From Vicinamibacteria bacterium (lineage in GTDB: Bacteria > Acidobacteriota > Vicinamibacteria > Marinacidobacterales > Marinacidobacteraceae): a stretch of DNA of 64,000 bases. The stretch is from contig OZ244068.1 of NCBI GenBank assembly GCA_965215615.1, forward strand, positions 1,648,223-1,712,222, read 5' to 3'. The notes under the pieces were generated by a model that saw only the letters and a list, made by a program, of their open reading frames with translations, made no database searches and was not told the origin of the DNA. This document shows, piece by piece, positions 1,798 to 48,046 of this stretch (positions within the stretch are counted from its first letter, which is position 1; every line of letters starts with the position of its first letter). Both the position numbers and the translations under genes were made by a program.

Positions 1798-1885
1798 CTT
1801 CGCCTCCTCGCGCCGAAACGCCTTCCGGTATTCTCTCCGCCCGCCAACCGATTTCCCCCCCAAGGAAATTTCTCAAGAAGATTTC

Positions 1886-25465: not shown

Positions 25466-25476
25466 TCAGGCAGAGT

Positions 25477-26783: not shown

Positions 26784-26853
26784 CTCCTGCCCATTCTACG
26801 GTCCGCCCGACTCTCCTCTCTTCCGCCGTGCGAAAGAATCCACCCTCCGCCCG

Positions 26854-32898: not shown

Positions 32899-33282
32899 TC
32901 AGTCTCCCCTGATGTAATCGTCCGTCCCGTCCAGCCAGTCCTGCCGGGGAGGGGTGAAGATGTCCACGTCGAGAGTGTCTTCGAGCGCAAGCGCCTTGTG
33001 CGGAACCCAGGAAGGCAGCACCAGCACCTCCCCCTCCCGCACGTCGATGGGCGCGGAGTCCTCCGAGTCGATCCAGAAGCGGAGCGCCCCCTTCAGCACC
33101 CAGGTGATCTGCTCGTTCTCGTGGGAATGCATGGGAACCACCGCGCCCTTGTCCAGATGGACGTGCGTGAGCATGGCCCGCTCACCGGTGATGATCCGCC
33201 GTTTTATGGAACTGCTGAGGCGTTCCTTTTCCATCGCTTCCCAGCGAATGAGGCGAACCTCGTTCTTTTTGTTGTCTTTCAT
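32899..33282 (-). CDS. cupin-domain protein
   Basis: 'HSHENEQITWVLKGAL...' cupin motifs. Confidence 0.7.
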   Translation of the reverse strand: MKDNKKNEVRLIRWEAMEKERLSSSIKRRIITGERAMLTHVHLDKGAVVPMHSHENEQITWVLKGALRFWIDSEDSAPIDVREGEVLVLPSWVPHKALALEDTLDVDIFTPPRQDWLDGTDDYIRGD

Positions 33283-33359
33283 GTTGTTCCTTATGACCGC
33301 TCCTTCCGGGCCGCATCATACCGATCTGTCGGGCCGATCTGTCAGGAAGCGGTGGACCA

Positions 33360-33752
33360 TCATCTCCAGTAGCCGGAGAGGATGCCGAGCGCGAGGCCGA
33401 AAACGCCGACCACCGCCGGGAAGACGAGCAGCCCGGCGAAAAGCCGTCCCGGAAGGCCCAGCCGGCCCGGCCAGAAGATGACGAGCGCCTGCGCGCCCAT
33501 CGTCGCGTAGAGGCTTGCGTTCGCGATCTCCGGCCGGGCGCAGAACGGGCAATCGGGATGCCCGGGAGTCTGGATGTTGCAATACGCGATGCCCCCCGCC
33601 CAGAGCGAAACGCAACCACAGTCGTAGATCAGGTCGCAGAGATTGATGAAGAAGATTCCGGCGACCGCCGCCACGACTGCGAAAGCGCCGGCCCGCAGCA
33701 AAAGCCGGGAGAACAGGCCGGGCGGAAACCGCGGGGGCAGATCACTGGTCAC
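33360..33752 (-). CDS. DUF2752-family small membrane protein
   Basis: Cys-rich 'CDLIYDCGCVSLW...CPFCA' with flanking TM helices. Confidence 0.55.
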   Translation of the reverse strand: MTSDLPPRFPPGLFSRLLLRAGAFAVVAAVAGIFFINLCDLIYDCGCVSLWAGGIAYCNIQTPGHPDCPFCARPEIANASLYATMGAQALVIFWPGRLGLPGRLFAGLLVFPAVVGVFGLALGILSGYWR

Positions 33753-33808
33753 GACCCGCCCATTGTACGGAGCCGGAGGGCCGGGTTCACCCGGCTAGAC
33801 TGGCCCGG

Positions 33809-34138
33809 ATGCCCGAAGCTCCTCGCGGGAAGTTCGGTCGCGTGCACCAGCTCGTCCGCCGGATTCCGGCCGGCCGGGTCACGAGCTACGGCCGCCTGGC
33901 CCGCGCGGTCAGCGCCGAAGGACACCCGCTTTCAGCGCGGGAGGCCGGCTGGGCCATGCGGAACTGCCCCGACGGGGTGCCCTGGCACCGGGTGGTGAAC
34001 GCGGCGGGCGAGCTCTCGGCAGAGGCGCGGGGCGGCTGTCCGCAGGGCCTTCAGCGAGCCCTCCTCGAACGCGAACGGGTTTTGTTCGATTCTCGCGGGA
34101 AAGTCCGGATGGATCTCCACCTCTGGGAGCCCGCCTGA
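33809..34138 (+). CDS. atl: alkyltransferase-like protein (MGMT DNA-binding domain without the catalytic Cys; PWHRV)
   Basis: 'TSYGRLA' and 'PWHRVVNAAG' where MGMT has PCHRV; 109 aa. Confidence 0.7.
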   Translation: MPEAPRGKFGRVHQLVRRIPAGRVTSYGRLARAVSAEGHPLSAREAGWAMRNCPDGVPWHRVVNAAGELSAEARGGCPQGLQRALLERERVLFDSRGKVRMDLHLWEPA

Positions 34139-34235
34139 CAGGCTGTGGAAAAACCAACCTGACGCGGCATTCGCCGGGCGGTCGGGCGGTTCCCTGTTAC
34201 CATTCCGCTTGTGGGATGGGTGCCATTGGTGGACC

Positions 34236-34268
34236 GACAATCTCCACCGACAATCCCCACCGACCCGC
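34236..34268 (+). repeat. tandem direct repeats (caccgacaatcYc x2.5) in the 5' region of the giant gene
   Basis: 'gaccgacaatctccaccgacaatccccaccgacc' read directly, ~150 nt upstream of the ATG. Confidence 0.8.
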
Positions 34269-34382
34269 ACGGGAAGAGGACAGAACAGAGTGAGACGAAT
34301 GGACAGACCGGCGGTATGTGCGCCGAACACCCCGCTACGCACTGCCGGGCGGCTCACGGATAGCTCGCAGATAGCCCCTCTT

Positions 34383-34403
34383 CCCCCCCCCCCCCCCCCC
34401 CCC
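34383..34403 (+). repeat. homopolymeric poly-C tract (21 nt) ending 5 nt upstream of the giant gene ATG
   Basis: Direct reading: C run 34383-34403, then 'gaaaa', then ATG at 34409; no SD-like purine run; in-frame TAG 48 nt upstream rules out an earlier start. Confidence 0.95.
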
Positions 34404-34408
34404 GAAAA

Positions 34409-37400
34409 ATGCGCGGTGTAAGGGGCTGGTTTCGTGGGCGGGTAGCCCTGTCATGCAGGAGTCTCCGGGGCGTTCTCGCCGCCGCGCTGCTGTTCGGCAT
34501 CGCCACCGCCGCCGAAGCGCAGACGACCGTCACTTTCGTAAGCAATCTGAATAGCGAAGGCGGAACCGACAATGCTAATACATTTAGAGATCGCCTAGCG
34601 CAATCCTTCACCACGGGTGCCAGCAGTGGCGGCTATCTCCTGTCGTCCGTCGAGATCTACCTCGGTAGAAATGCCTATGTAGGGGGCACCCCTGTGGTCG
34701 TCATCCGTGCGGACAGCAGTGGCGACCCCGGTGATGTCGTAGTCACCCTGACCAATCCGGGAAGCTATCCCGGAAGGCAAGATAGAGATGGGGGCACTGC
34801 CATCTTCACCGCCCCAGCGGGCACGACGCTCGCCGCGAGCACCACCTACTGGGTGGTCATCAACGACGAAGATCGAAGTCTTTTCTGGGCGAGCGCCTAC
34901 AGCAAAAACCACACGACGACGGGACTGCCCGGCTGGAGCATGGGTGGTACAAAGATACGTCGACAGGGTGCTACTAATTGGGCAACTTTTGACGACCTAC
35001 TACCGATGGAACTCAGCGGCACGGTGGTCACTGCCAGCGGCCCCGACGCCCCCGCGAACCTGCAGGCGGTGGTGAGCAGCGGCCAGGTGGAGTTGACATG
35101 GGATGACCCGTCGGACGACACGATCACGAAGTACCAGTACCAGCAGCGGACGCCTCCCAGCACCGGCACCTGGGGAGAGTGGACGGACATTTCGAACAGC
35201 GACGAGGACACCACCGATCACACGGTGACGGGGTTGACGAACGGCACGGAGTACGAGTTCGGGGTGCGTGCAGTGGCGGGGAGCACGAACGGCACGGCGG
35301 CCACGGTGAGCGCGACGCCCGTCGCCCCACCGGCAGCGCCGACGAGCCTGACGGCCAGGGCGGGTGCCACCCAGGTCACGCTGAGCTGGACCGACCCGGG
35401 CAACGCCACGATCACGAAGTACCAGGTGCGTTACGGCGCGGGCCTGACCACCGATTCGGGCTTCAGTTGGGGGACGTGGGCAGACGTTTCGAGCAGCAGC
35501 GCGACCACCACGAGCGCCACGGTGACCGGGCTGACGAACGGCACGGAATACACCTTCGGGGTCCGCGCCGTCGGCCTTTCGGGGGATGGCGCGGAGGCGA
35601 CGGTGTCGGCGACGCCTTTGGCCTCGGGCGCCCCGGCCAAGCCGACGGGCCTGACGGCGACAGCGGGCGGTAGCAGCGTCACCCTGAGCTGGACCGCCCC
35701 GAGCGGCACGATCACGAAGTACCAGGTCCGTCAGGGGACGGGCGATCCGGTCATGTGGGGGGCGTGGGCGGACATCACGGGCACCACGAGCCACACGGTG
35801 ACGGGCCTGACGAACGGCACGGAATACAGCTTTCAGGTGCGCGCGGTGGCGAACACGGTGCTGGGTGCGATGTCGGACACGGCGTCCGCGACGCCGAACG
35901 CCCCGCCGGCGGCGCCCGCCGGCTTGAAGGCCGAGGCGTACCCCGCCGAGATCAGACTGGAGTGGACCGAGCAGACCGACGACACCATCACCGGGTACCA
36001 GTATCAGACCCGCGCCAGAAGCGAAGGCGACTGGGGCGACTGGAGCGGCTGGAGCAATGTGCCCCTCGGCGAAGTCGGCGAGGATGACAAGGTCTTCAGC
36101 TTTTCGGGCAAGAGCTATTACAAGGTGGCCGACCTGACCAACGGCACCGAGTACGGCGTCCGGATCCGGGCGGTGGCCGGAACGGTGCCCGGCGCGGCGT
36201 CGGCCATCGTGACCGGGACTCCGAACGTCCGGCCGCTCGCGCCCACGGGCCTGAGCGCCACGGCGGGCGACGGGCAGGTCAGCCTGACGTGGGACGATCC
36301 CTCGAACGCCGCGATCACCAAATACCAGGTGACTTACGAGGTGGTCGCCACGAGCGTGCCCGCGACGGAGGACGTCCCGGTCAACGGCGCCACCACCAGC
36401 CACACCGTGACGGGCCTGGTGAACGGCACCCTGTACAGCTTCGAACTCGTCCCCTTCGCCGGCACGGTGTCGGGCCCGTCTTCGGGCAAGGTGCGGGCGA
36501 CCCCGACGGCCCCGGCGGGCCTGACGCTGACGCAGCCGGACGACAGGCAGGTGGACGAGGGCGACACCGCGGACACGGCAACCTTCACGGTCGCGCTGAG
36601 GAGCTTGCCGGCCGCGGACGTGATGGTGACGGTGACCGCCCCCGCCGGGCTGGAACTCGACGGCCCGGATGCCGGCGGCGTGTTTGCTTCCAGCGAGGAC
36701 CTCGCCTTCACCACCGCGAACTGGAACAGCGCGCAGACGGTGACGGTGCGCGCCACCGACGACAGCACGGACAGCCCGAGCGGGCGGGAAGAGGTCATCG
36801 CCTGGTCCGCGACCTCGACGGACACCGACTACAGCGGCCTGAAAGGCGATGCGGCCACCGTCACGGTGGTGGACAACGACCCGACGACGGTGACGCTCGC
36901 GGGCGCCGCCGGGGATGTGACCGAGGGCGGGACGAAGGACTTCACCGTCACCCTGGGGCGCGGCCTGGTGAGCGGCGAGAGGCTGGTGGTGCCGCTGACC
37001 TTCGGCACCGGCACCGGCACCGCGACGCGGAACACGGACTACACGGTGGCGTGCCCCTCGCCGCTGCCGGACGGGGCCGGAGTGGTCTGCGCGAACCTGA
37101 ACACCGGAAACGCGGCGTTGACCTTCGCCGGTCCGAGCATGGGGGAGACGTTGAAGGAGGTGACGCTGACGCTGAGTGCGGCGAGCGACAACACGACCGA
37201 AACGGGCGGCGAGACGGTGATCATCGGCCTCGGCACGCTGAACGCGAGTTCGGGGACCGGTCTGGAGGGCGGGGCGAGCGGCACCGACAGCCTGGCGGAC
37301 TTCAAGATCACCGACCCGGACGCGAGTGTGCCGACGGTTGCGATCACCGGGATCCCGGCGAAGATCAACAACACGAACGCGCTGACGGCGACCTTCACCT

Positions 37401-40400
37401 TCTCGGAGGCGGTGACGGGCTTCGAGAAGGCCGACATCACGGTGACGGGCGGCACGGCGGGCACGTTCTCGGCGACGAGCACGACGGTCTATACGCTCGG
37501 GATCACTCCCGACGGCGATGCGAACGTGGTGGTGACGGTGGCGGCGAACAGCGCGACCGACGGCACGAACATGGGCCCGGCGAGCGCGGAGAGTGCGACG
37601 GCCGTGTGGGACGAGACGGCGCCGACGGTCGAGATCACCGGGGTACCCGGCAAGATCAGCAACCGCGATGCGTTCACCGTGACCTTCAGCTTCTCGGAGA
37701 CGGTGACGGGCTTCGACACGGACGATGTCAGCGTCACGAACGGCGACAAGAGCGCGTTCTCGGGCAGCGGCAGCAGCTATACGGTGGTGGTGACCCCGAA
37801 TGCCGACGCGGACGTGACGGTGACGGTGGCCGCGGGCGGCGCAACCGACGGGTTGAACACCGGCCCGGCGAACGCGGTGAGCGCGACGGCCACCTGGGAT
37901 GCGAGCGTGCCGACGGTCGAGATCAGCGGGGTACCGAAGAGGATCACGACCCGCGCCGCGTTCACGGTGACGTTCACCTTCTCGGAGTCGGTGACGGATT
38001 TCGTGACCGGCGATGTCACGGTCACGAACGGCGACAAGAGCTCGTTCACGGGCAGCGGCAGCAGCTATACGGTGGTGGTGACCCCGAATGCCGACGCGGA
38101 CGTGACGGTGACGGTGGATGCGAACTCGGCGACGGACGGCACGAACACCGGCCCGACGGCCGATGTGGTCGCGACCGCGGTGTTCGGCGCGCCGGCGGCG
38201 CCGACCGTGACGGCGACGGCGGGGAACGGTCAGGTCACTCTGAGCTGGACCGACCCGTCCGACGACACGATCACTGAGTACGAGTATCAGCAGCGGGAGG
38301 AGGGCGGCACCTGGCCGAACAGCTGGACGGACATCGCGAACAGCGCGAGTCTCACCGAGTACGCGGTCACCAGCCTGACGAACGGGACGACCTACGAGTT
38401 CCGGGTCCGCGCCGTGTCCGGGACGGTGACCAGCCCGGCCTCGAGCGTCGTGACCGCGACGCCTCTCGCGGCGACCGCCCCCGGCCCGCCGCGGGACCTG
38501 AGGGTCGCGCCGGGCGACGGGCAGGTCGTTCTGAATTGGCGTGTCCCCGGAACCAACGCCGACGCGATCACGAAGTACGAGTTCCGCCAGGGAACGGGCG
38601 ACCCCCTCGCCTGGGGTGCGTGGGGGGACGCCTCCGGCACCACCACGAGCCACACGGTGACGGGCCTGACGAACGGCACGGAATACAGCTTTCAGGTGCG
38701 CGCGGTGGCGAACACGGTGCTGGGTGCGATGTCGGACACCGTGGAAGCGACTCCCAACCCGGTACCGGCCGCCCCGACGAACTTCACGGCCACGAAGGGG
38801 ACAGCCAGCGGCGCTATCGCCCTGAGCTGGACCGCCCCGAGCGGCACGATCACCAGGTATGAATACCGGCTCCGCCCTGTCGGTGGTGACTGGCCACAAA
38901 GCTGGACCCGCTTGACTGTCCTCGTCACCAGCTTCACGGTGGGGAGCCAGACGGACGGCACGGAGTACGAGATCGAACTCCGCGCCGTCAACGATTCGGG
39001 CGCGGGTGCCGCCGCCAGCGCGACCGCGACCCCGTTGGACCCGACCGCCGCGGCGGCGCCGACGAGCTTCACGGCGACGGCGGGGAGCGGTCAGGTCGCT
39101 CTGGCATGGACGGCCCCGAGCGGCACGATCACGAAGTACCAGGTGCGGCAGGGGACGGGCGATCCGGTCGTGTGGGGGGCGTGGGCGGACATCACGGGCA
39201 CCACGAGCCACACGGTGACGAGTCTGACGAACGGCACGGAATACAGCTTCCAGGTGCGTGCGGTGACCGGGACTTCGGTGCTGGGTGCGATGTCGGCGAC
39301 CGCGACGGCGACGCCGACGGCCGCGCCGGGGGTGACGATCTCGGTGACGGACGCGTCGGTGAGCGAGGCCGACCAGACGGACACGGCGACCTTCACGGTG
39401 GTGCTGAACACGGAGCCGTCGTCGGGGCTGGTGGTCGTGAGCGTGGATGCAAGCGGAGCCCCCGGGCTGGAGCTCGACGGCCCGGACGCCCCCACTGCGT
39501 TCAGCAACGCCGAGGTCCTGACGTTCACCACCACGAACTGGAACAGCCCGCGGACGATCAGGGTGCGCGCCACTTCCGAGGCCACGGACAACCCGAGCGG
39601 CCGGGAGGAGACGATCACCTGGACCGCGACTGCGACCGCGGATACCGACTACCAGAACCTGACCGGGGATGCGGCGACGGTCACGGTGGTGGACAACGAC
39701 CCGACGACGGTGACGCTCGCGGGCGCGGCGGGGGATGTGGCCGAGGGGGCGACGAAGACCTTCACGGTGACCCTGGGCCGGGGTCTGGTGGACGGCGAGA
39801 CGCTCGGGGTGCCGCTGGCCTTCACCGGTACCGCGACGCGGGGCACGGACTACATGACGGCGTGCCCGACGACACTTCCGACCGGGGTGACCTGTAACGA
39901 CCTCGACGACACGAGCCTGACCCCGACGGTGACCTTCACGGGGCCGACCTCGGGGGCGACGGCGCGGACGGTGACGCTGACGCTGAGTGCGGCGAGCGAC
40001 AACACGACCGAAACGGGCGGCGAGACGGTGATCATCGGCTTCGGCACGCTGACGGCCACCGGTCTGGAGGGTGGCACGAGCACCACCGACAGCCTGGCGG
40101 ACTTCAAGATCACGGACCCGGACGCGAGTGTGCCGACGGTTGCGATCACCGGGATCCCGGCGAAGATCAACAACACGAATGCGCTGACGGCGACCTTCAC
40201 CTTCTCGGAGGCGGTGACGGGCTTCGAGAAGGCCGACATCGCGGTGACGGGCGGCACGGCGGGCACGTTCTCGGCGACGAGCACGACGGTCTATACGCTC
40301 GGGATCACTCCCGACGGCGACGCGAACGTGGTGGTGACGGTGGCGGCGAACAGCGCGACCGACGGCACGAACATGGGCCCGGCGAGCGCGGAGAGTGCGA

Positions 40401-43400
40401 CGGCCGTGTGGGACGAGACGGCACCGACGGTGGAGATCACCGGGGTACCCGGCAAGATCAGCAACCGCGATGCGTTCACCGCGACCTTCAGCTTCTCGGA
40501 GACGGTGACGGGCTTCGACACGGACGATGTCAGCGTCACGAACGGCGACAAGAGCGCGTTCTCGGGCAGCGGCAGCAGCTATACGGTGGTGGTGACCCCG
40601 AATGCCGACGCGGACGTGACGGTGACGGTGGCCGCGGGCGGCGCAACCGACGGGTTGAACACCGGCCCGGCGAACGCGGTGAGCGCGACGGCCGTGTGGG
40701 ACGAGACGGCGCCGACGGTGGATATCACCGGGATACCGGCGAAGATCAACAACACGAATGCGCTGACGGCGACCTTCACCTTCTCGGAGTCGGTGACGGG
40801 CTTCGCGAAGAGCGACATCACGGTGACGGGCGGCACGGCGGGGGCGTTCGGGGGCAGCGGCACCACCTATACGCTCGCGATCACCCCGACGAGCGGTTCG
40901 AACGTGGTGGTGACGGTGGCTGCGAACAGCGCGACCGACGGCACGAACATGGGCCCGGCGAGCGCGGAGACGGCGACGGCCACCTGGGATGCGAGCGTGC
41001 CGACGGTCGGGATCACCGGGGTGCCGGCGCGGATCAGCGGCACGAGCGACCTGACGGCGACGTTCACCTTCTCGGAGGATGTCACGGGCTTCGTGAAGAA
41101 CGACATCACGGTGACGGGCGGCACGGCGGGCACGTTCACGGAGAGCAGTTCCACGGTCTATACGCTCGTGATCACCCCCGACGGCGACGCGAACGTGGTG
41201 GTGACGGTGACGGCGGACAGCGCGACCGACGGGTTGAACATGGGCCCGGCGAGCGCGGAGACGGCGACGGCGGTGTGGACCGCCCTGGTCTTCAACCCGG
41301 CGGCGGTGACCGTGGTCGAGGAGGCGAGCGCGACCTACACGGTGGAACTCTCGAGCCAGCCCGATGGGAACGTCACGGTGACGGTCTCGGGGGCGAGCGG
41401 GGAGGTGACGTTCGACACCGACTCCACGACGCCGGGCACCCAGACGACGGCGCTGACCTTCACGACGACCACCTGGGACGATGCGCAGACGGTGACGGTG
41501 TTGGCGGCGGCCGACGGCGACACGGCGAACGACAGCGCGACGCTGACGCACACCGCGTCGGGCGGCGGGTACGGCTCGGTGACCGGGGATGTGGAGGTGA
41601 CGGTGACCGACAACGACACGCCGGGTCTCGTCCTCGATCCGACGAGCCTGACGGTGGCGGAGGGCGGCAGCGGCACCTACACGGTGGCGCTCGCGACCCA
41701 GCCGACGGCGAGCGTGACGGTGACGGTCGCGGGGGCGAGCGGCGAGGTGACGTTCGACACCGACGGCGACACGGGCGGCAACCAGAACACGCTGACCTTC
41801 ACGACGAGCGACTGGGGCACGGCGCAGACGGTGACGGTGTCGGCGGGTCAGGACAACGATGCCGACGACGACAGCGCGACGCTGACGCACAGCGCGTCGG
41901 GTGGCGGCTACGGCTCGGTGACCGGGAACGTGGCGGTGACGGTGACCGACGACGACACGGCGAGCGTGGTCACGACAGAACCCGACGCGACGGCGACCGA
42001 GGGCAGCACCACGGACGAGGCGACCTTCACGGTGGCGCTGAACACCCGGCCGTCGAGCGATGTCACGGTGACGGTGACCGCGCCGACGGGTCTGACGCTC
42101 GACGGCCCGGACAGCGCCACCACGTTCACGAGCAGCGAGGGCCTCACCTTCACCAGCACGAACTGGAGCACGGCGCAGACGGTGACGGTGCGCGCGACCG
42201 ACGACAACGATGACAGCCCGATCGGTCGGGAACTGACGGTCACCTACGCCGTGACTTCGTCGGACAGTGGCTACAGCGGCCTGAGCGGGGATGCGGCGAC
42301 GGTCACGGTGGTGGACGACGACCCGACGACGGTGACGCTCGCGGGCACTGCCGGGGATGTCGTGGAGGGCGGGACGAAGACCTTCACGGTCACGCTGGAG
42401 CGCGGCCTCGTGAACGGCGAGACGTTGCCGGTGCCGCTGACCTTCGGCGGGGACGCGACGCGGGGCACGGACTACACGACGGCGTGTCCCACGACACTGC
42501 CGACGGGGGTGACCTGCGCGAACCTCGACTCGGGGACCCCGACGGTGACCTTCACGGGGCCGAGCACGGGGGCGACGGCGACGACGGTGACGCTGACCTT
42601 GACGGCGACGACGGACAACACCGCGGAGGCGGGCGGCGAGTCGGTGGTCATCGGCCTCGGCACGCTGAACGCGAGTTCGGGGACCGGTCTCGGGGGCGGC
42701 GCGAGCGGCACCGACAGCCTGGCGGACTTCGACATCACCGACCCGGACGCGAGCGCGCCGACGCTCGAGATCAGCGGGGTACCGAAGAGGATCACGACCC
42801 GCGCCGCGTTCACGGTGACGTTCACCTTCTCGGAGTCGGTGACGGACTTCGTCACCGGCGATGTCACGGTCACGAACGGCGACAAGAGCTCGTTCACGGG
42901 CAGCGGCAGCAGCTATACGGTGGTGGTGACCCCGAATGCCGACGCGGACGTGACGGTGACGGTGGATGCGGACTCGGCGACGGACGGCACGAACACCGGC
43001 CCGCCGGCCGATGTGGTCGCGACCGCGGTGTTCGGCGCGCCGGCGGCGCCGGCCAGTCTCTCCGCCACGGCGGGCAACGCCGCGGTCACCTTGAGCTGGA
43101 CCGACCCGATGGACGACACGATCACCGGGTACGAGTTCCGTCAGGGTGTCCAGAGTTCGCCCGTCACCTGGGGCAGCTGGACGCCCATCACGAACAGCGA
43201 CAAGGACACCACCTCCCACACGGTGACGGGTTTGACCGACGGCACGGAGTACTACTTCCAGGTCCGCGCGGTGTCCGATGCGGTGATGGGCGAGCCCTCG
43301 GCCGAGGAGAACCGGGACGCGGTGGTAACACCGGTGGCGGTGAACGCGCCGGCGGCGCCGACGGGCCTCGGGGCGACGGCGGGCAACGGCCAGGTGGCCT

Positions 43401-46400
43401 TGAGCTGGACGGCCTCGAGCAGCAACGGCATCACGAAGCACCAGGTGCGCAGCGGATCGGGCGATCCGCTCGTCTGGGGGAGTTGGACGGACATCGCGAA
43501 CAGCGCCAGTATCACGAGCCACACGGTGACGGGGCTGACGAACGGGACGGAGTACAGCTTCCAGGTGCGCGCGGTGGCGACGGCGGTGCTGGGTGTGACG
43601 TCGGACACGGCGGTCGCGACCCCGAGGGGTGCCGCGGGCGTGACGACGACGCAGCCGAGCGACCGGCAAGTGACCGAGGGTGACACTTCGGACACGGCGA
43701 CCTTCACGGTGGAACTCGACACCCAGCCGTCGAGCGATGTCACGCTGACGGTCGAGGCTGTCGCCGGGCTGGAACTCGACGGCCCGGACGGCGCCACCGC
43801 GTTCACGGCGAGCGAGGCGCTGACCTTCACGAGCAGCAACTGGGGCACGGCGCAGACGGTGACGGTGCGCGCCACGGACGACAGTGTTGACAGGCCCAGC
43901 GGGGGCGATCTGACCGTGAGCTACTCGATAGCATCGTCGGACAGTGGCTACAACTTGCTCTTCGGTGTGGCCGCCCTCGTCACCGTCATCGACAACGACC
44001 CGACCGCGGTGACCCTTGCGGGGGCCGCCGGGGACATCACCGAGGGCGAGACGAAGGACTTCACCGTCACGCTGGGCGTGCGCGGTCTGGTGAGCGGCGA
44101 GACGCTCGGGGTGCCGCTGACCTTCACCGGTGGCGCGACGCGGGGCACGGACTACACGACGGCGTGTCCCTCGTCGCTGCCGACCGGGGTGACGTGTAAC
44201 GACCTGAACACGGCGGCGACTCCGACCGTGACCTTCACCGGGCCGAGCACGGGGGAGACGGCGCGGACGGTGACGCTGACGCTGAGTGCGGCGACGGACA
44301 ACACGGCCGAGACGGGCGGCGAGACGGTGATGATCGGCCTCGGCACGCTGACGGCTACCGGTCTGGAGGGCGGGGCGAGCGGCACGGGCAGTCTGGCGGA
44401 CTTCCGGATCACCGACCCGTCGGCGACGGACACGACGGTACCGACGCTTTCGATCTCGGGAGTACCGGGGACGATCAGCACGAGGGCGGCGTTCACGGCG
44501 AACTTCACCTTCAGCGAGTCGGTGACGGACTTCGATACGAACGACATCACGGTGACCGGCGGGAGCAAGGGCACGCTCTCGGGCAGCGGGAGGAGCTACC
44601 GGATGCGGATCACGCCGACCGGCGGGGTGAACGTGGTGGTGACGGTGCGTCGAAATGCGGCGACCGACGGCACGAACCGGGGCCCGGCGGCGGCGGTGTC
44701 GCGGACCGCGACCTGGCGTGCCCCGAGTCCGCCGCCGCAGCAGCCGCCAGCGGAGGAAGACGACGACGATCCGCCTTCTTCCGGTGGTGGCGGCGGTGGT
44801 GGGGGTAGTACCCCGTCCCTCCCCTCGGCTTCTCTGTCCGCCGTCTCGGTGAGCGCGGGGCAGATGGTGATCGAGGGCGGCGAGGCGCTGTTCCGGATCA
44901 CCGCGAGTCCGGTGCCGAGCGACGAGATCACGGTGCGGGTGCGGGTGTCGGCGACGGGCGACTTCGTGGACGGGGTGCAGCTCGGCGAGCGGCTCGTCAC
45001 GCTCTCGGCTTCGGCGCCCACGGCGAGTCTGCGGGTAGCCACCATCGATGACCGCCGGAACGAGGCGGACGGGACGGTGACGGTGACGGTGCTTTCGGGC
45101 GAGGACTACCGCCTGTCGCAGGCCTCGGCCTCGCTCGCGGTCACGGACGACGACACGCCCGCGCTGGTCCTGACTCCGGAGACGCTGACGGTGGACGAGG
45201 GCGGCAGCGGGAACTACCGGGTGGCGCTCGCCACCGAACCCGCCGGCGATGTGACGGTGAGCATCGCGGGCACGGGTGAGGTGACGACGGCGCAGAACAC
45301 GCTGACCTTCACCGCGGGGAACTGGAACGTGGCGCAACCGGTGACAGTGTCGGCGGGGCAGGACGCGGATGCGGCGGACGACCGGGCGAGACTGGATCAC
45401 CGCGCGAGCGGCGGCGGCTACGACTCGGTGACCGGCAGCGTGGCGGTGACCGTCATGGACGACGACACGCCGGGCCTGATCCTGACTCCGGCGGCGCTGA
45501 CGCTGGCGGAAGGCGCGAGCGCGAGCTACACGGTGGCACTCGCCACCGAGCCGACGGGGAACGTGACGGTGAGCATCGCGGGCACGGGCGATGTGACGGT
45601 GGACCGGAGCACGCTGAGCTTCACCGCCCGGAACTGGAGCGCGGCGCAGACGGTGACGCTCTTCGCGGCGCGGGACGAGGATGTGGCGAACGACAGCGCG
45701 ACGCTGGCGCACCACGCACGGGGCGGTGACTACTCATCGGTCACCGGCAGCGTGGAGGTGACGGTGACGGATGCGGGCGCGGCGGTGGTGTCGGCGCATC
45801 TGGCACGGTTCGGCCGGACGGTGGCGGAGCAGGCGCTCGACGGGATCGCGGGAAGGCTGCGGGCGCCGCGCACGGCGGGGATGCAGAAGACGCTCGCAGG
45901 TCCCCGCCTGAACGTTCCGCGCGAAGGAGATACGGCGCAGGGCACGATGCACGCCGAGGCGCGGAGGACCGGCTTCGAGAACGAGTACGAGAGCCAAAAC
46001 CGCGACCTGCTGCACCTCCCGAACGCCCGGGAAATGCTGCTCGGGTCGAGCTTCACGCTCACGACCCAGGAGGCGGAGGGAACCGGGGGCAGCTTCGCCT
46101 TCTGGGGCCGGGCGAGCGCGAACCGCTTCGACGGCGCCACGAACGACGGAGCCACGGCGATCGGCCTCGACGGCGAGGTGCTGACGGGTCTCGTGGGCGC
46201 GGACTATGCGCGGGGCGACTGGCTCTTCGGCCTGGCGCTGACCCACAGCCTCTCCGAGGGGGGCTACACCAGCGAAGGTGCCAGCGGCGGCAAGGTGGAT
46301 GCGTCGCTGACGGCGGCGCTGCCGTATGCGTCGATCCAGGCGAACCCGCGGCTGAAGCTCTGGGGTGCGGGCGGCTACGGCATCGGCGAGGTGACGCTCA

Positions 46401-47212
46401 AGACCGGAGGCGAGAGCCACCGGGCGGACACCGACTGGACGATGGCGGCGGCGGGAATACGGGGAGACCTGCTGGATCCGGCGGGCGGGCCGCTCGCGGT
46501 AGCGGTGATCGGCGACGGACTGTGGACGCGGAGCACATCGGATGAGATCGCCGCGCTTTCGACGGCGGATACCTTCGTGACCCGGCTGCGGCTCGGGGTG
46601 GAGGCCAGCTACGACTTCAACTTCGACGGCATGGGCGATCTCACGCCGCGGGTGGAAGCGGGCGCCCGCCACGACGGGGGCGATGCGGAGACCGGGGCCG
46701 GGATGGATCTCGGTGTCGGAATCAACTGGAAGGCACCGGTCTTCGGATTGAGCCTCGATGTCGCGGGACGGATGCTGATCCTCCACGAGAACGAGGACTT
46801 CGCGGACCGGGGGATTTCGGCGGCGGTGGTCTTCGACCCGAACCCGGAGAGCGAGCGGGGGCCGTCGCTTTCGCTGCGCCAGGCGATCGGCGGGAGCGCC
46901 GACGGGGGGATCGAGGCGCTGTTCGCGACGACGACCCCACTCGGCGACGGCGGGAACATCGGGAGCGGAGCGGGAATGCGACGGACGCTTGAGACCGCGT
47001 ACGGCTTCTCCGCCTTCGGGGGGCGCTTCACGGCGAGTCCGCACGCCGAGGTGGACTTCACGGAGCGGGCGCGGGACTACGCGCTCGGCTGGCGGTTCGT
47101 GCCGCACAAGCTGGCATCGGACCTCGCGTTCGGCATCAAGGCCACCCGCCGGGAAGGCGAGACCCTGGCCCCGGTGCACGTCTTCGGGGTCGAGGCCACC
47201 GTGCGCTGGTGA
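34409..47212 (+). CDS. giant (4267 aa) autotransporter-like surface adhesin with FN3, Ig-like and Calx-beta-like repeat arrays and a C-terminal outer-membrane beta-barrel
   Basis: Single 12,804-nt ORF; signal peptide ending AEAQT; >15 FN3-like modules ('TITKYQVR...GTEYSFQVRAV'); Calx-beta-like 'VTVVDNDPTTVTLAG' modules; Ig-like 'PTVAITGIPAKINN...' modules; last ~450 aa autotransporter-type barrel ending 'VEATVRW'. Confidence 0.9.
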   Translation: MRGVRGWFRGRVALSCRSLRGVLAAALLFGIATAAEAQTTVTFVSNLNSEGGTDNANTFRDRLAQSFTTGASSGGYLLSSVEIYLGRNAYVGGTPVVVIRADSSGDPGDVVVTLTNPGSYPGRQDRDGGTAIFTAPAGTTLAASTTYWVVINDEDRSLFWASAYSKNHTTTGLPGWSMGGTKIRRQGATNWATFDDLLPMELSGTVVTASGPDAPANLQAVVSSGQVELTWDDPSDDTITKYQYQQRTPPSTGTWGEWTDISNSDEDTTDHTVTGLTNGTEYEFGVRAVAGSTNGTAATVSATPVAPPAAPTSLTARAGATQVTLSWTDPGNATITKYQVRYGAGLTTDSGFSWGTWADVSSSSATTTSATVTGLTNGTEYTFGVRAVGLSGDGAEATVSATPLASGAPAKPTGLTATAGGSSVTLSWTAPSGTITKYQVRQGTGDPVMWGAWADITGTTSHTVTGLTNGTEYSFQVRAVANTVLGAMSDTASATPNAPPAAPAGLKAEAYPAEIRLEWTEQTDDTITGYQYQTRARSEGDWGDWSGWSNVPLGEVGEDDKVFSFSGKSYYKVADLTNGTEYGVRIRAVAGTVPGAASAIVTGTPNVRPLAPTGLSATAGDGQVSLTWDDPSNAAITKYQVTYEVVATSVPATEDVPVNGATTSHTVTGLVNGTLYSFELVPFAGTVSGPSSGKVRATPTAPAGLTLTQPDDRQVDEGDTADTATFTVALRSLPAADVMVTVTAPAGLELDGPDAGGVFASSEDLAFTTANWNSAQTVTVRATDDSTDSPSGREEVIAWSATSTDTDYSGLKGDAATVTVVDNDPTTVTLAGAAGDVTEGGTKDFTVTLGRGLVSGERLVVPLTFGTGTGTATRNTDYTVACPSPLPDGAGVVCANLNTGNAALTFAGPSMGETLKEVTLTLSAASDNTTETGGETVIIGLGTLNASSGTGLEGGASGTDSLADFKITDPDASVPTVAITGIPAKINNTNALTATFTFSEAVTGFEKADITVTGGTAGTFSATSTTVYTLGITPDGDANVVVTVAANSATDGTNMGPASAESATAVWDETAPTVEITGVPGKISNRDAFTVTFSFSETVTGFDTDDVSVTNGDKSAFSGSGSSYTVVVTPNADADVTVTVAAGGATDGLNTGPANAVSATATWDASVPTVEISGVPKRITTRAAFTVTFTFSESVTDFVTGDVTVTNGDKSSFTGSGSSYTVVVTPNADADVTVTVDANSATDGTNTGPTADVVATAVFGAPAAPTVTATAGNGQVTLSWTDPSDDTITEYEYQQREEGGTWPNSWTDIANSASLTEYAVTSLTNGTTYEFRVRAVSGTVTSPASSVVTATPLAATAPGPPRDLRVAPGDGQVVLNWRVPGTNADAITKYEFRQGTGDPLAWGAWGDASGTTTSHTVTGLTNGTEYSFQVRAVANTVLGAMSDTVEATPNPVPAAPTNFTATKGTASGAIALSWTAPSGTITRYEYRLRPVGGDWPQSWTRLTVLVTSFTVGSQTDGTEYEIELRAVNDSGAGAAASATATPLDPTAAAAPTSFTATAGSGQVALAWTAPSGTITKYQVRQGTGDPVVWGAWADITGTTSHTVTSLTNGTEYSFQVRAVTGTSVLGAMSATATATPTAAPGVTISVTDASVSEADQTDTATFTVVLNTEPSSGLVVVSVDASGAPGLELDGPDAPTAFSNAEVLTFTTTNWNSPRTIRVRATSEATDNPSGREETITWTATATADTDYQNLTGDAATVTVVDNDPTTVTLAGAAGDVAEGATKTFTVTLGRGLVDGETLGVPLAFTGTATRGTDYMTACPTTLPTGVTCNDLDDTSLTPTVTFTGPTSGATARTVTLTLSAASDNTTETGGETVIIGFGTLTATGLEGGTSTTDSLADFKITDPDASVPTVAITGIPAKINNTNALTATFTFSEAVTGFEKADIAVTGGTAGTFSATSTTVYTLGITPDGDANVVVTVAANSATDGTNMGPASAESATAVWDETAPTVEITGVPGKISNRDAFTATFSFSETVTGFDTDDVSVTNGDKSAFSGSGSSYTVVVTPNADADVTVTVAAGGATDGLNTGPANAVSATAVWDETAPTVDITGIPAKINNTNALTATFTFSESVTGFAKSDITVTGGTAGAFGGSGTTYTLAITPTSGSNVVVTVAANSATDGTNMGPASAETATATWDASVPTVGITGVPARISGTSDLTATFTFSEDVTGFVKNDITVTGGTAGTFTESSSTVYTLVITPDGDANVVVTVTADSATDGLNMGPASAETATAVWTALVFNPAAVTVVEEASATYTVELSSQPDGNVTVTVSGASGEVTFDTDSTTPGTQTTALTFTTTTWDDAQTVTVLAAADGDTANDSATLTHTASGGGYGSVTGDVEVTVTDNDTPGLVLDPTSLTVAEGGSGTYTVALATQPTASVTVTVAGASGEVTFDTDGDTGGNQNTLTFTTSDWGTAQTVTVSAGQDNDADDDSATLTHSASGGGYGSVTGNVAVTVTDDDTASVVTTEPDATATEGSTTDEATFTVALNTRPSSDVTVTVTAPTGLTLDGPDSATTFTSSEGLTFTSTNWSTAQTVTVRATDDNDDSPIGRELTVTYAVTSSDSGYSGLSGDAATVTVVDDDPTTVTLAGTAGDVVEGGTKTFTVTLERGLVNGETLPVPLTFGGDATRGTDYTTACPTTLPTGVTCANLDSGTPTVTFTGPSTGATATTVTLTLTATTDNTAEAGGESVVIGLGTLNASSGTGLGGGASGTDSLADFDITDPDASAPTLEISGVPKRITTRAAFTVTFTFSESVTDFVTGDVTVTNGDKSSFTGSGSSYTVVVTPNADADVTVTVDADSATDGTNTGPPADVVATAVFGAPAAPASLSATAGNAAVTLSWTDPMDDTITGYEFRQGVQSSPVTWGSWTPITNSDKDTTSHTVTGLTDGTEYYFQVRAVSDAVMGEPSAEENRDAVVTPVAVNAPAAPTGLGATAGNGQVALSWTASSSNGITKHQVRSGSGDPLVWGSWTDIANSASITSHTVTGLTNGTEYSFQVRAVATAVLGVTSDTAVATPRGAAGVTTTQPSDRQVTEGDTSDTATFTVELDTQPSSDVTLTVEAVAGLELDGPDGATAFTASEALTFTSSNWGTAQTVTVRATDDSVDRPSGGDLTVSYSIASSDSGYNLLFGVAALVTVIDNDPTAVTLAGAAGDITEGETKDFTVTLGVRGLVSGETLGVPLTFTGGATRGTDYTTACPSSLPTGVTCNDLNTAATPTVTFTGPSTGETARTVTLTLSAATDNTAETGGETVMIGLGTLTATGLEGGASGTGSLADFRITDPSATDTTVPTLSISGVPGTISTRAAFTANFTFSESVTDFDTNDITVTGGSKGTLSGSGRSYRMRITPTGGVNVVVTVRRNAATDGTNRGPAAAVSRTATWRAPSPPPQQPPAEEDDDDPPSSGGGGGGGGSTPSLPSASLSAVSVSAGQMVIEGGEALFRITASPVPSDEITVRVRVSATGDFVDGVQLGERLVTLSASAPTASLRVATIDDRRNEADGTVTVTVLSGEDYRLSQASASLAVTDDDTPALVLTPETLTVDEGGSGNYRVALATEPAGDVTVSIAGTGEVTTAQNTLTFTAGNWNVAQPVTVSAGQDADAADDRARLDHRASGGGYDSVTGSVAVTVMDDDTPGLILTPAALTLAEGASASYTVALATEPTGNVTVSIAGTGDVTVDRSTLSFTARNWSAAQTVTLFAARDEDVANDSATLAHHARGGDYSSVTGSVEVTVTDAGAAVVSAHLARFGRTVAEQALDGIAGRLRAPRTAGMQKTLAGPRLNVPREGDTAQGTMHAEARRTGFENEYESQNRDLLHLPNAREMLLGSSFTLTTQEAEGTGGSFAFWGRASANRFDGATNDGATAIGLDGEVLTGLVGADYARGDWLFGLALTHSLSEGGYTSEGASGGKVDASLTAALPYASIQANPRLKLWGAGGYGIGEVTLKTGGESHRADTDWTMAAAGIRGDLLDPAGGPLAVAVIGDGLWTRSTSDEIAALSTADTFVTRLRLGVEASYDFNFDGMGDLTPRVEAGARHDGGDAETGAGMDLGVGINWKAPVFGLSLDVAGRMLILHENEDFADRGISAAVVFDPNPESERGPSLSLRQAIGGSADGGIEALFATTTPLGDGGNIGSGAGMRRTLETAYGFSAFGGRFTASPHAEVDFTERARDYALGWRFVPHKLASDLAFGIKATRREGETLAPVHVFGVEATVRW

Positions 47213-47214
47213 CA

Positions 47215-47294
47215 GTTTTCCACATTCTGGCCCCCAGGCGGGACAAAACGGGCGCTGTTGCGTCAATGTATGTATGTTCCCCGATCGAATCAGG
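47215..47294 (+). repeat. conserved ~80-nt intergenic element, copy B (pairs with 15563..15641)
   Basis: See copy A; sits 2 nt after the giant gene stop. Confidence 0.8.
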
Positions 47295-47347
47295 CGTGAC
47301 GATGCGGGGCAGGTGGATACGGCTACACTGAACCACGGACCCGTTCG

Positions 47348-47944
47348 ATGACCGACGAAAAAATGACCGACGCAGAGCTGAAAGCGCTGGTTGCTGGCCT
47401 GGCCACGGCGCAGGACCGCACCGATGCCCAGATGGCGAAGACCGATGCCAAGATCGACCGGCTGGTGGACCGAATTGCGGAGACCGAGGTCCTGGTGAGG
47501 GAAACCTCCGTCGAAATCAAAGAGCTGTCGAAAATGTACGGCGGTGCCAGCAACAACCTGGGCGCGGCGGTCGAGGAGTTCTTCTACAACAGCCTCAAGG
47601 CCCATCCGGTTCTCGGTGGGGTGCGCTTCGAATCCGTCGAAAGGAACGTCCCGGGCCGCGACGACAAAACCGGCCAGAAGGACGAGTTCGACCTGCTGCT
47701 CGTGAACGGCAGCGAGGTGTTCGTCGTGGAGGTGAAGCACAGGGCGCACAAGGACGACCTGAAGGACCTGCTGGACGAGAAGGCACCGAACTCCCGGCGG
47801 ATGTTCCCGAAGTACGCCGGCCACCGGCACCGGTTCGCTCTCGCCACGTTCCACATCCATGACGAACTGAAGGAGTCGGCTCTGGAGAAGGGGGTGACCG
47901 TGCTGCAGCGCAAGGGCGACGTGATCGAAACCTCCCCGGCCTGA
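47348..47944 (+). CDS. hypothetical protein: N-terminal coiled coil plus C-terminal PD-(D/E)xK-like nuclease fold
   Basis: N-terminus is a heptad-like K/E/D-rich helix; C-terminal 'DEFDLLLVNGSEVFVVEVKHR' fits a D...E-x-K restriction-endonuclease-like core. Confidence 0.5.
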   Translation: MTDEKMTDAELKALVAGLATAQDRTDAQMAKTDAKIDRLVDRIAETEVLVRETSVEIKELSKMYGGASNNLGAAVEEFFYNSLKAHPVLGGVRFESVERNVPGRDDKTGQKDEFDLLLVNGSEVFVVEVKHRAHKDDLKDLLDEKAPNSRRMFPKYAGHRHRFALATFHIHDELKESALEKGVTVLQRKGDVIETSPA

Positions 47945-48046
47945 AGCGGGGCGAACGGCGCTCGGCAGGCTCTTCGGAGGGTAGCTCAGCCTCCCTCCGC
48001 GCCGCTCCACCCGGGTCACGATGAGCCGCTGCTACTCTCGCGTGCC

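What the first reader, a model, noticed from the sequence alone, without database searches (positions are those of the whole stretch)
34383..34411. 21-nt poly-C tract where the ribosome-binding site of a 12.8-kb adhesin gene should be
A run of 21 C (34383-34403) ends 5 nt before the only possible start codon of the 4267-aa autotransporter-like gene. An in-frame TAG lies 48 nt upstream and no other start exists. Homopolymeric tracts of this length are highly mutable by slipped-strand mispairing. This tract is not in the coding sequence, so expansion or contraction would alter 5'UTR length and structure rather than shift the frame. There is no SD-like purine run, so the C-tract itself forms the initiation region. 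A large surface adhesin is the classic target of phase-variable expression, but a tract in the translation-initiation region, and a poly-C in a 70% GC genome, is unusual.
Basis: partly seen in the sequence, partly recalled or inferred. Interest (0 to 1): 0.85.

Follow-up and report, generated by a model that had tools for sequence, protein, structure and literature searches.

The report
Long poly-C run before adhesin gene
A real and statistically extreme run of 21 C sits 5 bases before the true start codon of a horizontally acquired giant surface adhesin in an uncultured marine acidobacterium; it is a good but unproven candidate for a mutable expression switch of a kind well known in pathogens.

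Summary
An in-frame TAG lies 48 nt upstream, with no alternative in-frame start and no Shine-Dalgarno (SD) sequence.

The tract is an extreme outlier. C/G runs of 7 or more are about 8-fold depleted in the window, and C21 has an expectation of about 2e-6.

The gene is a type-Va autotransporter: signal peptide, choice-of-anchor-R head, 11 fn3 domains, 9 Big_12 domains and a C-terminal barrel. The host is a Vicinamibacteria (Acidobacteriota) genome. Three relatives lack the gene between the same flanking genes, so it is a lineage-specific island. Collinear flanks rule out a chimeric join.

The ATG is confirmed by a homologue (L001) that starts identically and has no poly-C.

- Lack of SD is ordinary in this genome.
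- Promoter-spacing mechanisms are excluded by the anatomy.
- Predicted start-site accessibility barely changes with ±3 C.
- No read or strain data could be obtained, so length variation is untested.

Verdict: a plausible contingency locus in an unusual phylum, with the tract in an unusual position. It is a new variant of a known kind.

The parts
34383..34403 (+). Poly-C tract, 21 C (G21 on the template strand)
   Evidence: Expectation about 2e-6 per window, in a genome that otherwise avoids C/G runs.
34404..34408 (+). GAAAA spacer between the tract and the start codon
   Evidence: It leaves no room for a -10 box plus transcription start between the tract and the ATG.
34409..47212 (+). 4267-aa autotransporter adhesin ORF (11 fn3, 9 Big_12 domains)
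   Evidence: GC3 is 0.91. The start is confirmed by homologue P0001/L001.
34409..34519 (+). Predicted Sec signal peptide, MRGVRGWFRGRVALSCRSLRGVLAAALLFGIATAAEA|Q
   Evidence: Read from the translation: R-rich n-region, hydrophobic core, AEA-Q. It is conserved in P0001 and P0135. No signal-peptide predictor was available.
34541..35023 (+). N-terminal choice-of-anchor R domain (aa 45-205)
   Evidence: NCBIfam NF041539, E 6.1e-28, 97.8 bits against a cut-off of 30.
46010..47209 (+). C-terminal autotransporter beta-barrel region, ending ...ATVRW
   Evidence: TIGR01414 gives 18.6 bits against a cut-off of 16. There are 293 homologues at E<=1e-5; several carry PF03797 or the NCBI name 'autotransporter outer membrane beta-barrel domain-containing protein'.
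34361..34363 (+). In-frame TAG that closes the adhesin frame upstream
34299..34421 (+). Out-of-frame upstream ORF (MDRP...PPPPPPPEKCAV*) that reads through the tract and ends 13 nt into the adhesin ORF. It fuses in frame at 22 or 19 C.
   Evidence: GC3 is about 67% (hand count) against 0.91 for the gene. Such overlapping upstream ORFs occur at 10 of 16 genes, so its presence is at chance level.
34352..34373 (.). 11-nt tandem direct repeat GCTCACGGATA/GCTCGCAGATA, 9 nt upstream of the tract
   Evidence: D4, 82% identity. A two-copy family may be chance. It is a possible regulator site, untested.
34233..34264 (.). 13-nt tandem repeat ACCGACAATCCCC x2.5 in the intergenic region
33809..34138 (+). 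Upstream MGMT-family gene, with its own leaderless-type TAGACT box at 33796-33801. It forms the left syntenic flank.
   Evidence: Pfam PF01035, E 8e-19. TAnnnT at -13. Orthologues in L087, L088 and L090.
34139..48046 (.). Lineage-specific interval (leader, adhesin and the NERD-domain gene 47348-47944), absent between MGMT and GH109 in relatives
   Evidence: The blastn synteny breaks at 34134 and resumes at 48047. NERD identified by Pfam.

Best explanation
The C21 run is a genuine simple-sequence repeat in the transcribed 5' leader of a horizontally acquired giant type-Va autotransporter adhesin, in a Vicinamibacteria (Acidobacteriota) genome that is probably associated with a marine host.

At this length the tract should gain and lose C residues at high frequency by slipped-strand mispairing, and probably also by RNA-polymerase slippage. 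A natural population would then be a mixture of tract lengths, and adhesin expression would be heterogeneous. That makes it a contingency locus.

Only 5 nt separate the tract from the conserved ATG. The tract therefore cannot act as a -35/-10 spacer and must work after transcription initiation, as part of the mRNA leader. I propose two components:
- A graded one: the length of a C-rich, G-poor, unstructured leader affects ribosome loading, transcript elongation or stability.
- A discrete one: the tract length modulo 3 decides the fate of ribosomes that start at the upstream ATG 34299 or GTG 34290. At n=21 they stop 13 nt past the adhesin ATG. At n=22 or 19 they read into the adhesin in frame. 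At n=20 or 23 they run 146 nt across its start out of frame.

Shown: the tract, its rarity, the true start, the nature of the gene, its island status and the frame arithmetic. Inferred: hypermutability, transcription of the tract, and any effect on expression.
For: - Tract and flanks.
- Extreme departure from background, with homopolymer avoidance elsewhere. No comparable runs in about 417 kb of other loci or in the syntenic relatives.
- True start codon: P0001 and P0135 begin with the same ATG and leader, with synonymous differences.
- Cargo: a surface adhesin with signal peptide, choice-of-anchor R domain, fn3, Big_12 and autotransporter barrel.
- Promoter-spacer and leaderless models are excluded by the anatomy. 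There is no sigma-70-like site. No TAnnnT lies at -13 to -15, although 5 of 16 other genes have one.
- Frame consequences of +/-1 C.
- The contig is collinear with relatives on both sides of the island, so the junction is not chimeric.
- Precedents for length-variable repeats in transcribed leaders of adhesin or surface genes: uspA1 G(n) (PMC7302503), the tlpB G-repeat (PMC8295292) and the hmw1A 5'UTR repeat (PMC12721329).
Against: - No direct evidence of length polymorphism. No reads and no second strain could be obtained.
- The only related 5' region (L001/L086) has no poly-C. None of four loci with homologous barrels has a homopolymer >=9 within 10 kb. The feature is therefore not recurrent.
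- Predicted accessibility of the start region is almost insensitive to +/-3 C.
- The upstream ORF is statistically unremarkable (10 of 16 genes have one). It has poor codon bias and no well-spaced SD.
- The promoter and transcription start are unknown.
- The exact count of 21, and hence the modulo-3 state, may be a consensus error.
Confidence: 0.45

Rival explanations
1. Non-adaptive repeat. The tract is a recent runaway expansion of a C-rich leader at the edge of a newly acquired island. It is tolerated because it lies outside the coding sequence. It may vary in length, but that variation has no regulatory consequence.
For: The gene is a lineage-specific insertion in a variable interval. The homologue's leader is also low-complexity and C-rich (CACACACGCACACACC) without being a long repeat. 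Predicted start-site accessibility is flat across tract lengths. The feature does not recur in homologous loci.
Against: C/G runs are strongly avoided elsewhere in the window (3 versus 23.9 expected at >=7). That implies selection or mutation bias against them, so a neutral 21-mer should decay quickly. Its position 5 nt from the start codon of a surface adhesin is the classic signature of selected mutability.
Confidence: 0.28
2. Static cis-element, in which the composition of the tract matters rather than its mutability. It could be a C-rich, G-poor leader acting as a Rho loading (rut-like) site that attenuates transcription of a 12.8-kb foreign gene. It could be an unstructured standby platform for SD-independent initiation. 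It could also be a G-quadruplex or i-motif-forming block on the template or coding strand.
For: The 40-nt stretch 34370-34409 is 65% C and 7% G. The region folds less well than all 200 shuffles (z = +2.69), so it is unusually unstructured. The genome largely initiates without SD. From established knowledge, poly(C) is the strongest known activator of Rho, and G runs of 15 or more can form intramolecular quadruplexes.
Against: None of these functions needs a perfect homopolymer, and a mixed C/U/A leader would be far more stable genetically. The homologue does without it.
Confidence: 0.12
3. Consensus or assembly artefact. The run is real low-complexity sequence, but its length is mis-called (long-read homopolymer error) or inflated. 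In the extreme case the join is spurious.
For: Related contigs come from long-read metagenome assemblies (record names). One low-coverage contig (L089, 4x) shows several genes split relative to its 117x twin L090, so indel errors do occur in this data type.
Against: Flanks on both sides of the island are collinear with relatives, so a chimeric join would need two compensating misjoins. The sequence immediately after the tract is the exact conserved start of the gene. Compared window genes have near-orthologous lengths, with no split genes. A length error of +/-1-2 would not remove the feature.
Confidence: 0.08
4. In-frame coding tract in an alternative state. The functional protein starts at ATG 34299 (or GTG 34290), with the tract encoding poly-proline ahead of the signal peptide. 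The 21-C allele in this assembly would be the frameshifted OFF or alternative phase of a classic intragenic switch.
For: The upstream frame is open through the tract and fuses with the ORF at 22 or 19 C.
Against: Homology with P0001 begins exactly at ATG 34409 and not upstream: the local alignment score of 17 is matched by 37% of shuffles. GC3 of the extension is about 67% against 0.91 for the gene, and it uses rare codons (AGA, ATA, CTA, GTA; read). A 37-aa extension would bury the signal peptide. Upstream out-of-frame ORFs are common by chance here.
Confidence: 0.06

Closest known systems
Moraxella catarrhalis uspA1 poly-G tract
   Same: A homopolymeric G/C run lies just upstream of the ORF of an autotransporter-class adhesin. 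Tract length gives graded high or low mRNA levels rather than a frameshift (PMC7302503).
   Different: The uspA1 tract is 8-12 G. From my memory of Lafontaine et al. 2001 (paper not held), it lies about 30 nt upstream of the ORF. Here the tract is 21 C and ends 5 nt from the ATG, occupying the position of a ribosome-binding site. The uspA1 polymorphism has been demonstrated; this one is untested.
Haemophilus influenzae hmw1A/hmw2A 5'UTR heptamer repeats
   Same: A simple-sequence repeat is transcribed as part of the 5'UTR of a large adhesin gene. The pyrimidine-rich repeat pairs with a downstream G-rich region, and the effect on expression is post-transcriptional (PMC12721329). Here the last approximately 7 C plus GAAA can pair with UUUCGUGGGCGGG at 34430-34442 in the MFE fold.
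   Different: The hmw repeat is a heptamer, not a homopolymer. It is a two-partner-secretion adhesin, and it has a long stable hairpin processed by RNase III. Here the predicted structure is weak (z = +2.69) and insensitive to tract length.
Helicobacter pylori tlpB leader G-repeat targeted by the sRNA RepG
   Same: A length-variable homopolymer in an mRNA leader sets translation output gradually (PMC8295292).
   Different: That system needs a complementary C/U-rich sRNA loop. No G-rich partner (no G run >=7) exists in this 64-kb window. That tract is 6-16 G and lies further from the start codon.
Bordetella pertussis fim and Neisseria meningitidis opc/porA promoter tracts
   Same: Poly-C or poly-G runs upstream of surface-protein genes act as contingency loci (established knowledge; the general class is reviewed in PMC11868660, listed).
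   Different: Those tracts set the spacing between promoter elements. Here there is no room for a -10 box and a transcription start between the tract and the conserved ATG, so that mechanism was tested and not met.

Membership tests
Simple-sequence-repeat contingency locus (phase-variable gene) | Repeat tract above the slippage threshold (about 7-9 or more for G/C homopolymers) | tested here: met
   21 C. The next longest C/G run in the window is 7.
Simple-sequence-repeat contingency locus (phase-variable gene) | The tract is placed where length change can alter expression (in the ORF, promoter or leader) of a surface or host-interaction gene | tested here: met
   The tract ends 5 nt before the verified ATG of an autotransporter adhesin. 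+/-1 C changes the frame relations with an upstream ATG.
Simple-sequence-repeat contingency locus (phase-variable gene) | Tract length polymorphic within populations or between strains | not testable with these tools
   No reads. The genome exists in NCBI/ENA (P0136 equals the window's MGMT gene called from an internal GTG) but could not be fetched. No second strain was found.
Simple-sequence-repeat contingency locus (phase-variable gene) | Reversible change of expression with tract length | not testable with these tools
   This needs reporter or expression data. In silico opening energy is nearly flat.
Promoter-spacer type tract (Bordetella fim, Neisseria opc/porA) | Tract lies between the -35/activator site and the -10 box | tested here: not met
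   Only GAAAA separates the tract from the conserved ATG. No sigma-70-like site was found in 33700-34700.
Leaderless gene (TAnnnT box about 12 nt upstream of the start; PMC3160421) | TAnnnT beginning at about -12 to -15 from the ATG | tested here: not met
   Positions -15 to -6 are all C. Five of 16 other genes in the window have the box.
SD-led translation initiation | GGAG/GAGG/AGGA-like motif 5-13 nt upstream of the start | tested here: not met
   None for 34409. Clear SDs were seen at only about 2-3 of 16 confident starts, for example 51766 and 54849.
Type Va (classical) autotransporter | C-terminal outer-membrane beta-barrel translocator domain | tested here: met
   TIGR01414 gives 18.6 bits against a cut-off of 16, a weak direct hit. 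The Pfam PF03797 model did not hit the window protein directly. However, homologues at 43-56% identity over 99% of the query carry PF03797 or the NCBI autotransporter name. The protein has a terminal aromatic residue.
Type Va (classical) autotransporter | N-terminal Sec signal peptide plus a large repetitive passenger | tested here: met
   The signal peptide was read from the sequence and is conserved in P0001. The passenger has 11 fn3 and 9 Big_12 domains. No dedicated signal-peptide predictor was run.

The most novel reading that the evidence does not exclude
The tract is the core of a three-state translational switch with no described equivalent. A leader ORF starts at GTG 34290 or ATG 34299 and reads the C-run as a poly-proline stretch (PPPPPPP). 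Such a stretch stalls ribosomes and depends on EF-P, and it sits directly over the SD-less adhesin start codon.

Tract length modulo 3 would select one of three outcomes:
- Termination and reinitiation at the adhesin ATG (n=21).
- In-frame read-through that gives an N-terminally extended protein (n=22 or 19).
- Occlusion of the start by out-of-frame translation (n=20 or 23).

The untranslated poly-C RNA would serve as a Rho entry site whenever the leader is not covered by ribosomes. This would combine a DNA contingency repeat with a stalling leader peptide and Rho attenuation in one 21-nt element.
Probability: 0.07. Interest if true: 0.8.

Novelty: new variant of a known kind. Interest (0 to 1): 0.5.

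Why it matters
Repeat-driven phase variation is documented almost entirely in cultured pathogens and commensals of animals. My literature searches found nothing for Acidobacteriota or sponge and marine-invertebrate symbionts.

If this tract is length-polymorphic and tunes a 4267-aa adhesin rich in fn3 and Ig-like domains, stochastic surface switching would extend to uncultured environmental symbionts. It would also extend to an organism that mostly initiates translation without SD sequences.

The position of the tract, abutting the start codon where the ribosome-binding site normally lies, would add a leader-level mechanism to the known promoter-spacing and intragenic frameshift types.

The claim is directly testable with the reads that produced the assembly. 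If the tract proves monomorphic, or its length irrelevant, the finding reduces to a curiosity at the edge of an acquired gene.

Tried and rejected
1. Orthologous loci. Scans with the N-terminal 222 aa found no relative in genome contigs or metagenome contigs. A degenerate DNA pattern for the conserved 5' coding region found nothing in metagenomes.

2. Exact look-ups. Look-ups of the adhesin, the GH109 gene and the MGMT gene were not on record. P0136, which is the window's own MGMT gene, could not be located either.

3. Plasmid megablast of 33000-36000: no match.

4. Upstream homology with L001. It is not significant: the score of 17 is reached by 37% of shuffles. I therefore dropped the apparent shared GATAGC motifs and the shared upstream-ORF architecture as evidence.

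5. The upstream ORF as a meaningful feature. I rejected it as statistically notable, because 10 of 16 genes have an out-of-frame ATG-initiated ORF crossing their start.

6. RNA-structure rheostat. The opening energy of -12 to +13 is almost flat for n = 18-24, for three assumed 5' ends.

7. Promoter and terminator scan and Rfam at gathering and E<=1 thresholds: nothing.

8. Recurrence near homologous autotransporter genes. No homopolymer >=9 in L082-L085.

9. Island boundaries and att-like direct repeats. None found. The intergenic regions cannot be aligned to L088.

10. Chimeric join through sequencing poly-G artefacts. Rejected on the collinearity of both flanks and on the exact conservation of the gene start after the tract.
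Full report
**Observation**

The sequence reads ...GATAGCCCCTCTT-C21-GAAAA-ATGCGCGGTG.... The C run occupies 34383-34403 and the ATG is at 34409. The ORF 34409-47212 encodes 4267 aa.
- Its frame is closed by TAG 34361-34363, 48 nt upstream. There is no in-frame ATG, GTG or TTG before GTG 34694.
- No SD-like motif precedes the ATG.
- The window is 66.9% GC with no N, and the tract is the only homopolymer longer than 8.
- C/G runs are strongly under-represented against a first-order Markov model of the window: 3 versus 23.9 expected at >=7, and 1 versus 7.1 at >=8. The longest run in 100 simulations was 14, and the expected number of C21+ runs is about 2e-6.
- About 417 kb of other fetched loci contain no C/G run >=9 apart from one G9. 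The two syntenic relatives L087 and L088 have none above 8.

**What the gene is**

- Pfam finds 11 fn3 and 9 Big_12 domains.
- The first 37 residues look like a Sec signal peptide with a long arginine-rich n-region and an AEA|Q cleavage site.
- Residues 45-205 are a choice-of-anchor R domain (NF041539, 6e-28).
- The last 400 residues end in ...ATVRW. They match TIGR01414 (autotransporter barrel) just above its cut-off, at 18.6 versus 16 bits.
- That C-terminal region has 293 homologues at E<=1e-5. Many come from MAGs of several phyla. Some carry PF03797 or the NCBI name 'autotransporter outer membrane beta-barrel domain-containing protein'.

**Whose genome**

A scan with the polyphosphate kinase gave best matches of 76-77% identity to MAGs named 'Candidatus Marinacidobacterium sp.' and 'Vicinamibacteria bacterium'. 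Other Acidobacteriota MAGs followed at about 62%. Several of these record names, and those of the barrel homologues, suggest sponge or marine-invertebrate metagenomes. That is an inference from names and was not tested.

The window's own genome is present in NCBI/ENA. P0136, on a 3.0-Mb contig, is the window's MGMT gene called from an internal GTG. It could not be fetched, and the adhesin protein itself is not in the protein collection.

**The start codon is real**

The only protein sharing the N-terminus is P0001, with its strain variant P0135. It is a truncated 299-311-aa homologue in an unrelated 58.8%-GC genome (L001, L086).
- It begins MRGVMGWLRGRGAPSCKSLWG..., against MRGVRGWFRGRVALSCRSLRG... 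here.
- At the DNA level, similarity starts exactly at the ATG. It includes five synonymous-only codon differences in the first 25 codons.
- Upstream of the ATG there is no significant similarity: a local score of 17 is reached by 37% of shuffles.
- L001 has GACCACACACGCACACACCGGC before its ATG. That is also C-rich, G-poor and without SD, but it is not a long repeat.

**The gene is an island, and the join is not chimeric**

I recovered the orthologous neighbourhood through the adjacent MGMT gene (33809-34138, PF01035) from three relatives with MGMT at 71-73% identity.

blastn shows collinearity up to 34134 and again from 48047 onward. The GH109 gene and the amidohydrolase are about 84% identical to L088. 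The interval between differs in each genome:
- The window has 13.9 kb: the leader, the adhesin and a NERD-domain gene.
- L088 has a 129-nt x7.6 tandem array.
- L090 has a DAO-like gene and two DUF4013 genes.
- L087 has a different arrangement.

The adhesin is therefore a lineage-specific acquisition in a variable interval. Both flanks return to the same chromosomal context, so a misassembly at the tract is very unlikely. No att-like direct repeats flank the island. The boundaries cannot be mapped because the intergenic DNA is not alignable.

**Translation and transcription signals in this genome**

Of 16 confident starts, only about two or three have a well-placed SD (for example 51766 and 54849). 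Five have TAGACT, TAGAAT or TACTCT beginning 13-15 nt upstream of the ATG. This is the TAnnnT signature of leaderless genes in high-GC bacteria (PMC3160421). At the background rate seen in the same 70-nt upstream stretches, about 0.4 such hits would be expected in that 3-nt position range.

Absence of SD is therefore ordinary here. The adhesin gene is nevertheless neither SD-led nor leaderless-type, because its -15 to -6 positions are all C.
- No sigma-70-like promoter or intrinsic terminator is predicted in 33700-34700, and no Rfam family matches.
- Only GAAAA lies between the tract and the conserved ATG, so the tract cannot be a -35/-10 spacer. That excludes the Bordetella fim and Neisseria opc type of mechanism.
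- The tract must be transcribed from an unknown upstream promoter, or by read-through from the MGMT gene.

**What a length change would do**

- *RNA structure.* The region 34340-34480 folds worse than all 200 shuffles (z = +2.69). Its ensemble is diffuse. The MFE pairs only the last approximately 7 C plus GAAA with UUUCGUGGGCGGG (34430-34442), leaving the AUG in the loop. The energy needed to open -12 to +13 changes by no more than about 0.6 kcal/mol for +/-3 C, for three assumed 5' ends. A pure 'UTR structure' rheostat is therefore not supported.
At n = 21, 18 or 24 this ORF, which encodes PPPPPPP across the tract, stops 13 nt into the adhesin ORF. At n = 22, 19 or 25 it is fused in frame. 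At n = 20, 23 or 17 it runs 146 nt into the gene out of frame. However, the upstream ORF has about 67% GC3 against 0.91 for the gene. It uses rare codons and has no well-spaced SD. Overlapping upstream ORFs of this kind occur at 10 of 16 genes. Its existence is thus at chance level, and I give the frame model only modest weight.
- *Composition.* The stretch 34370-34409 is 65% C and 7% G. This is the kind of RNA that Rho prefers (established knowledge), but that could not be tested here.

**Comparison with known systems**

The closest known cases are length-variable repeats in transcribed leaders of surface-protein genes:
- M. catarrhalis uspA1 G(n), with graded mRNA levels (PMC7302503).
- H. 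influenzae hmw1A heptamers, which form a 5'UTR hairpin with a G-rich region and are processed by RNase III (PMC12721329).
- The H. pylori tlpB G-repeat, read by the sRNA RepG (PMC8295292).

This case differs from all three in four respects:
- Tract length (21).
- Base (C).
- Position (abutting the start codon).
- Host (Acidobacteriota, largely SD-independent).

Searches for phase variation in sponge symbionts or Acidobacteria returned nothing relevant.

**Verdict**

The tract is real, non-random and correctly located. The phase-variation reading is plausible, and I put it at about 0.45 as a functional contingency locus. Its defining properties, length polymorphism and expression change, remain untested.

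The rivals are:
- A non-adaptive expansion at the edge of an acquired island (0.28).
- A static C-rich leader element (0.12).
- A consensus or assembly error (0.08).
- An intragenic switch seen in its OFF phase (0.06).

Novelty: a new variant of a known kind. Interest: 0.5.

Noticed in passing
window 21355-21368(-), 25465-25479(-), 26783-26798(-), 33796-33809(+), 48033-48047(+): Five of 16 confident gene starts have TAGACT, TAGAAT or TACTCT beginning 13-15 nt upstream of the ATG and no SD. This is the signature of leaderless mRNAs. It suggests that this Vicinamibacteria genome relies heavily on leaderless and SD-independent initiation.
   Followed up: partly
L088 10394-11356: In a related genome, the interval that holds the adhesin here (between MGMT and GH109) is filled by a 129-nt tandem repeat of 7.6 copies, 91% matches, C/A-rich. 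A gene caller had annotated a 247-aa 'protein' across it.
   Followed up: partly
L001 10001-10900 and L086 10001-10936: A truncated 299-311-aa copy of the adhesin's N-terminus sits in an unrelated 58.8%-GC genome, next to a PF07798 gene. It has the same ATG and signal peptide, is 58% identical, and has a choice-of-anchor R domain plus one Big_12 domain. This suggests horizontal exchange of adhesin modules between co-habiting bacteria.
   Followed up: partly
L084 2375-21908: A homologue of the autotransporter barrel (P0020) lies between a phage-type integrase and a full F-type tra/trb conjugation gene set. It is therefore probably carried on an integrative conjugative element. A PF07798 gene is nearby, as in L001.
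   Followed up: no
window 34233-34264 and 34352-34373: Two short tandem direct repeats lie in the adhesin's upstream region. One is 13 nt (ACCGACAATCCCC x2.5). The other is 11 nt (GCTCACGGATA/GCTCGCAGATA) and ends 9 nt before the poly-C. They could be regulator binding sites or chance matches.
   Followed up: no
window 37318-38155, 40132-41278, 41333-42086, 45140-45771: There are long in-frame tandem repeats (288, 339 and 312 nt, 77-83% matches) inside the adhesin gene, corresponding to repeated Big_12-type domains. They are likely substrates for recombinational size variation of the passenger.
   Followed up: no
window 35000-45715 (-): A 3571-aa open frame runs antisense to the adhesin gene. 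It is almost certainly a by-product of the very high GC3 (0.91) and repetitive composition of the sense strand, not a gene.
   Followed up: no
L089 versus L090 (4768-6797, 7189-8063, 8054-9238): The same species was assembled at 4x (L089) and at 117x (L090). The low-coverage contig has three genes split into fragments that are intact in the other. This shows indel errors in this type of long-read metagenome assembly, which matters for how far the exact count of 21 C can be trusted.
   Followed up: partly
window 1855-1861: A C7 run (G7 on the gene's strand) lies about 58 nt upstream of the probable GTG start (1797, minus strand) of a gene whose N-terminus (AAVDQGTTSSRCLLFD) looks like a glycerol or FGGY-type sugar kinase. 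It is one of only three C/G runs >=7 in the window.
   Followed up: no
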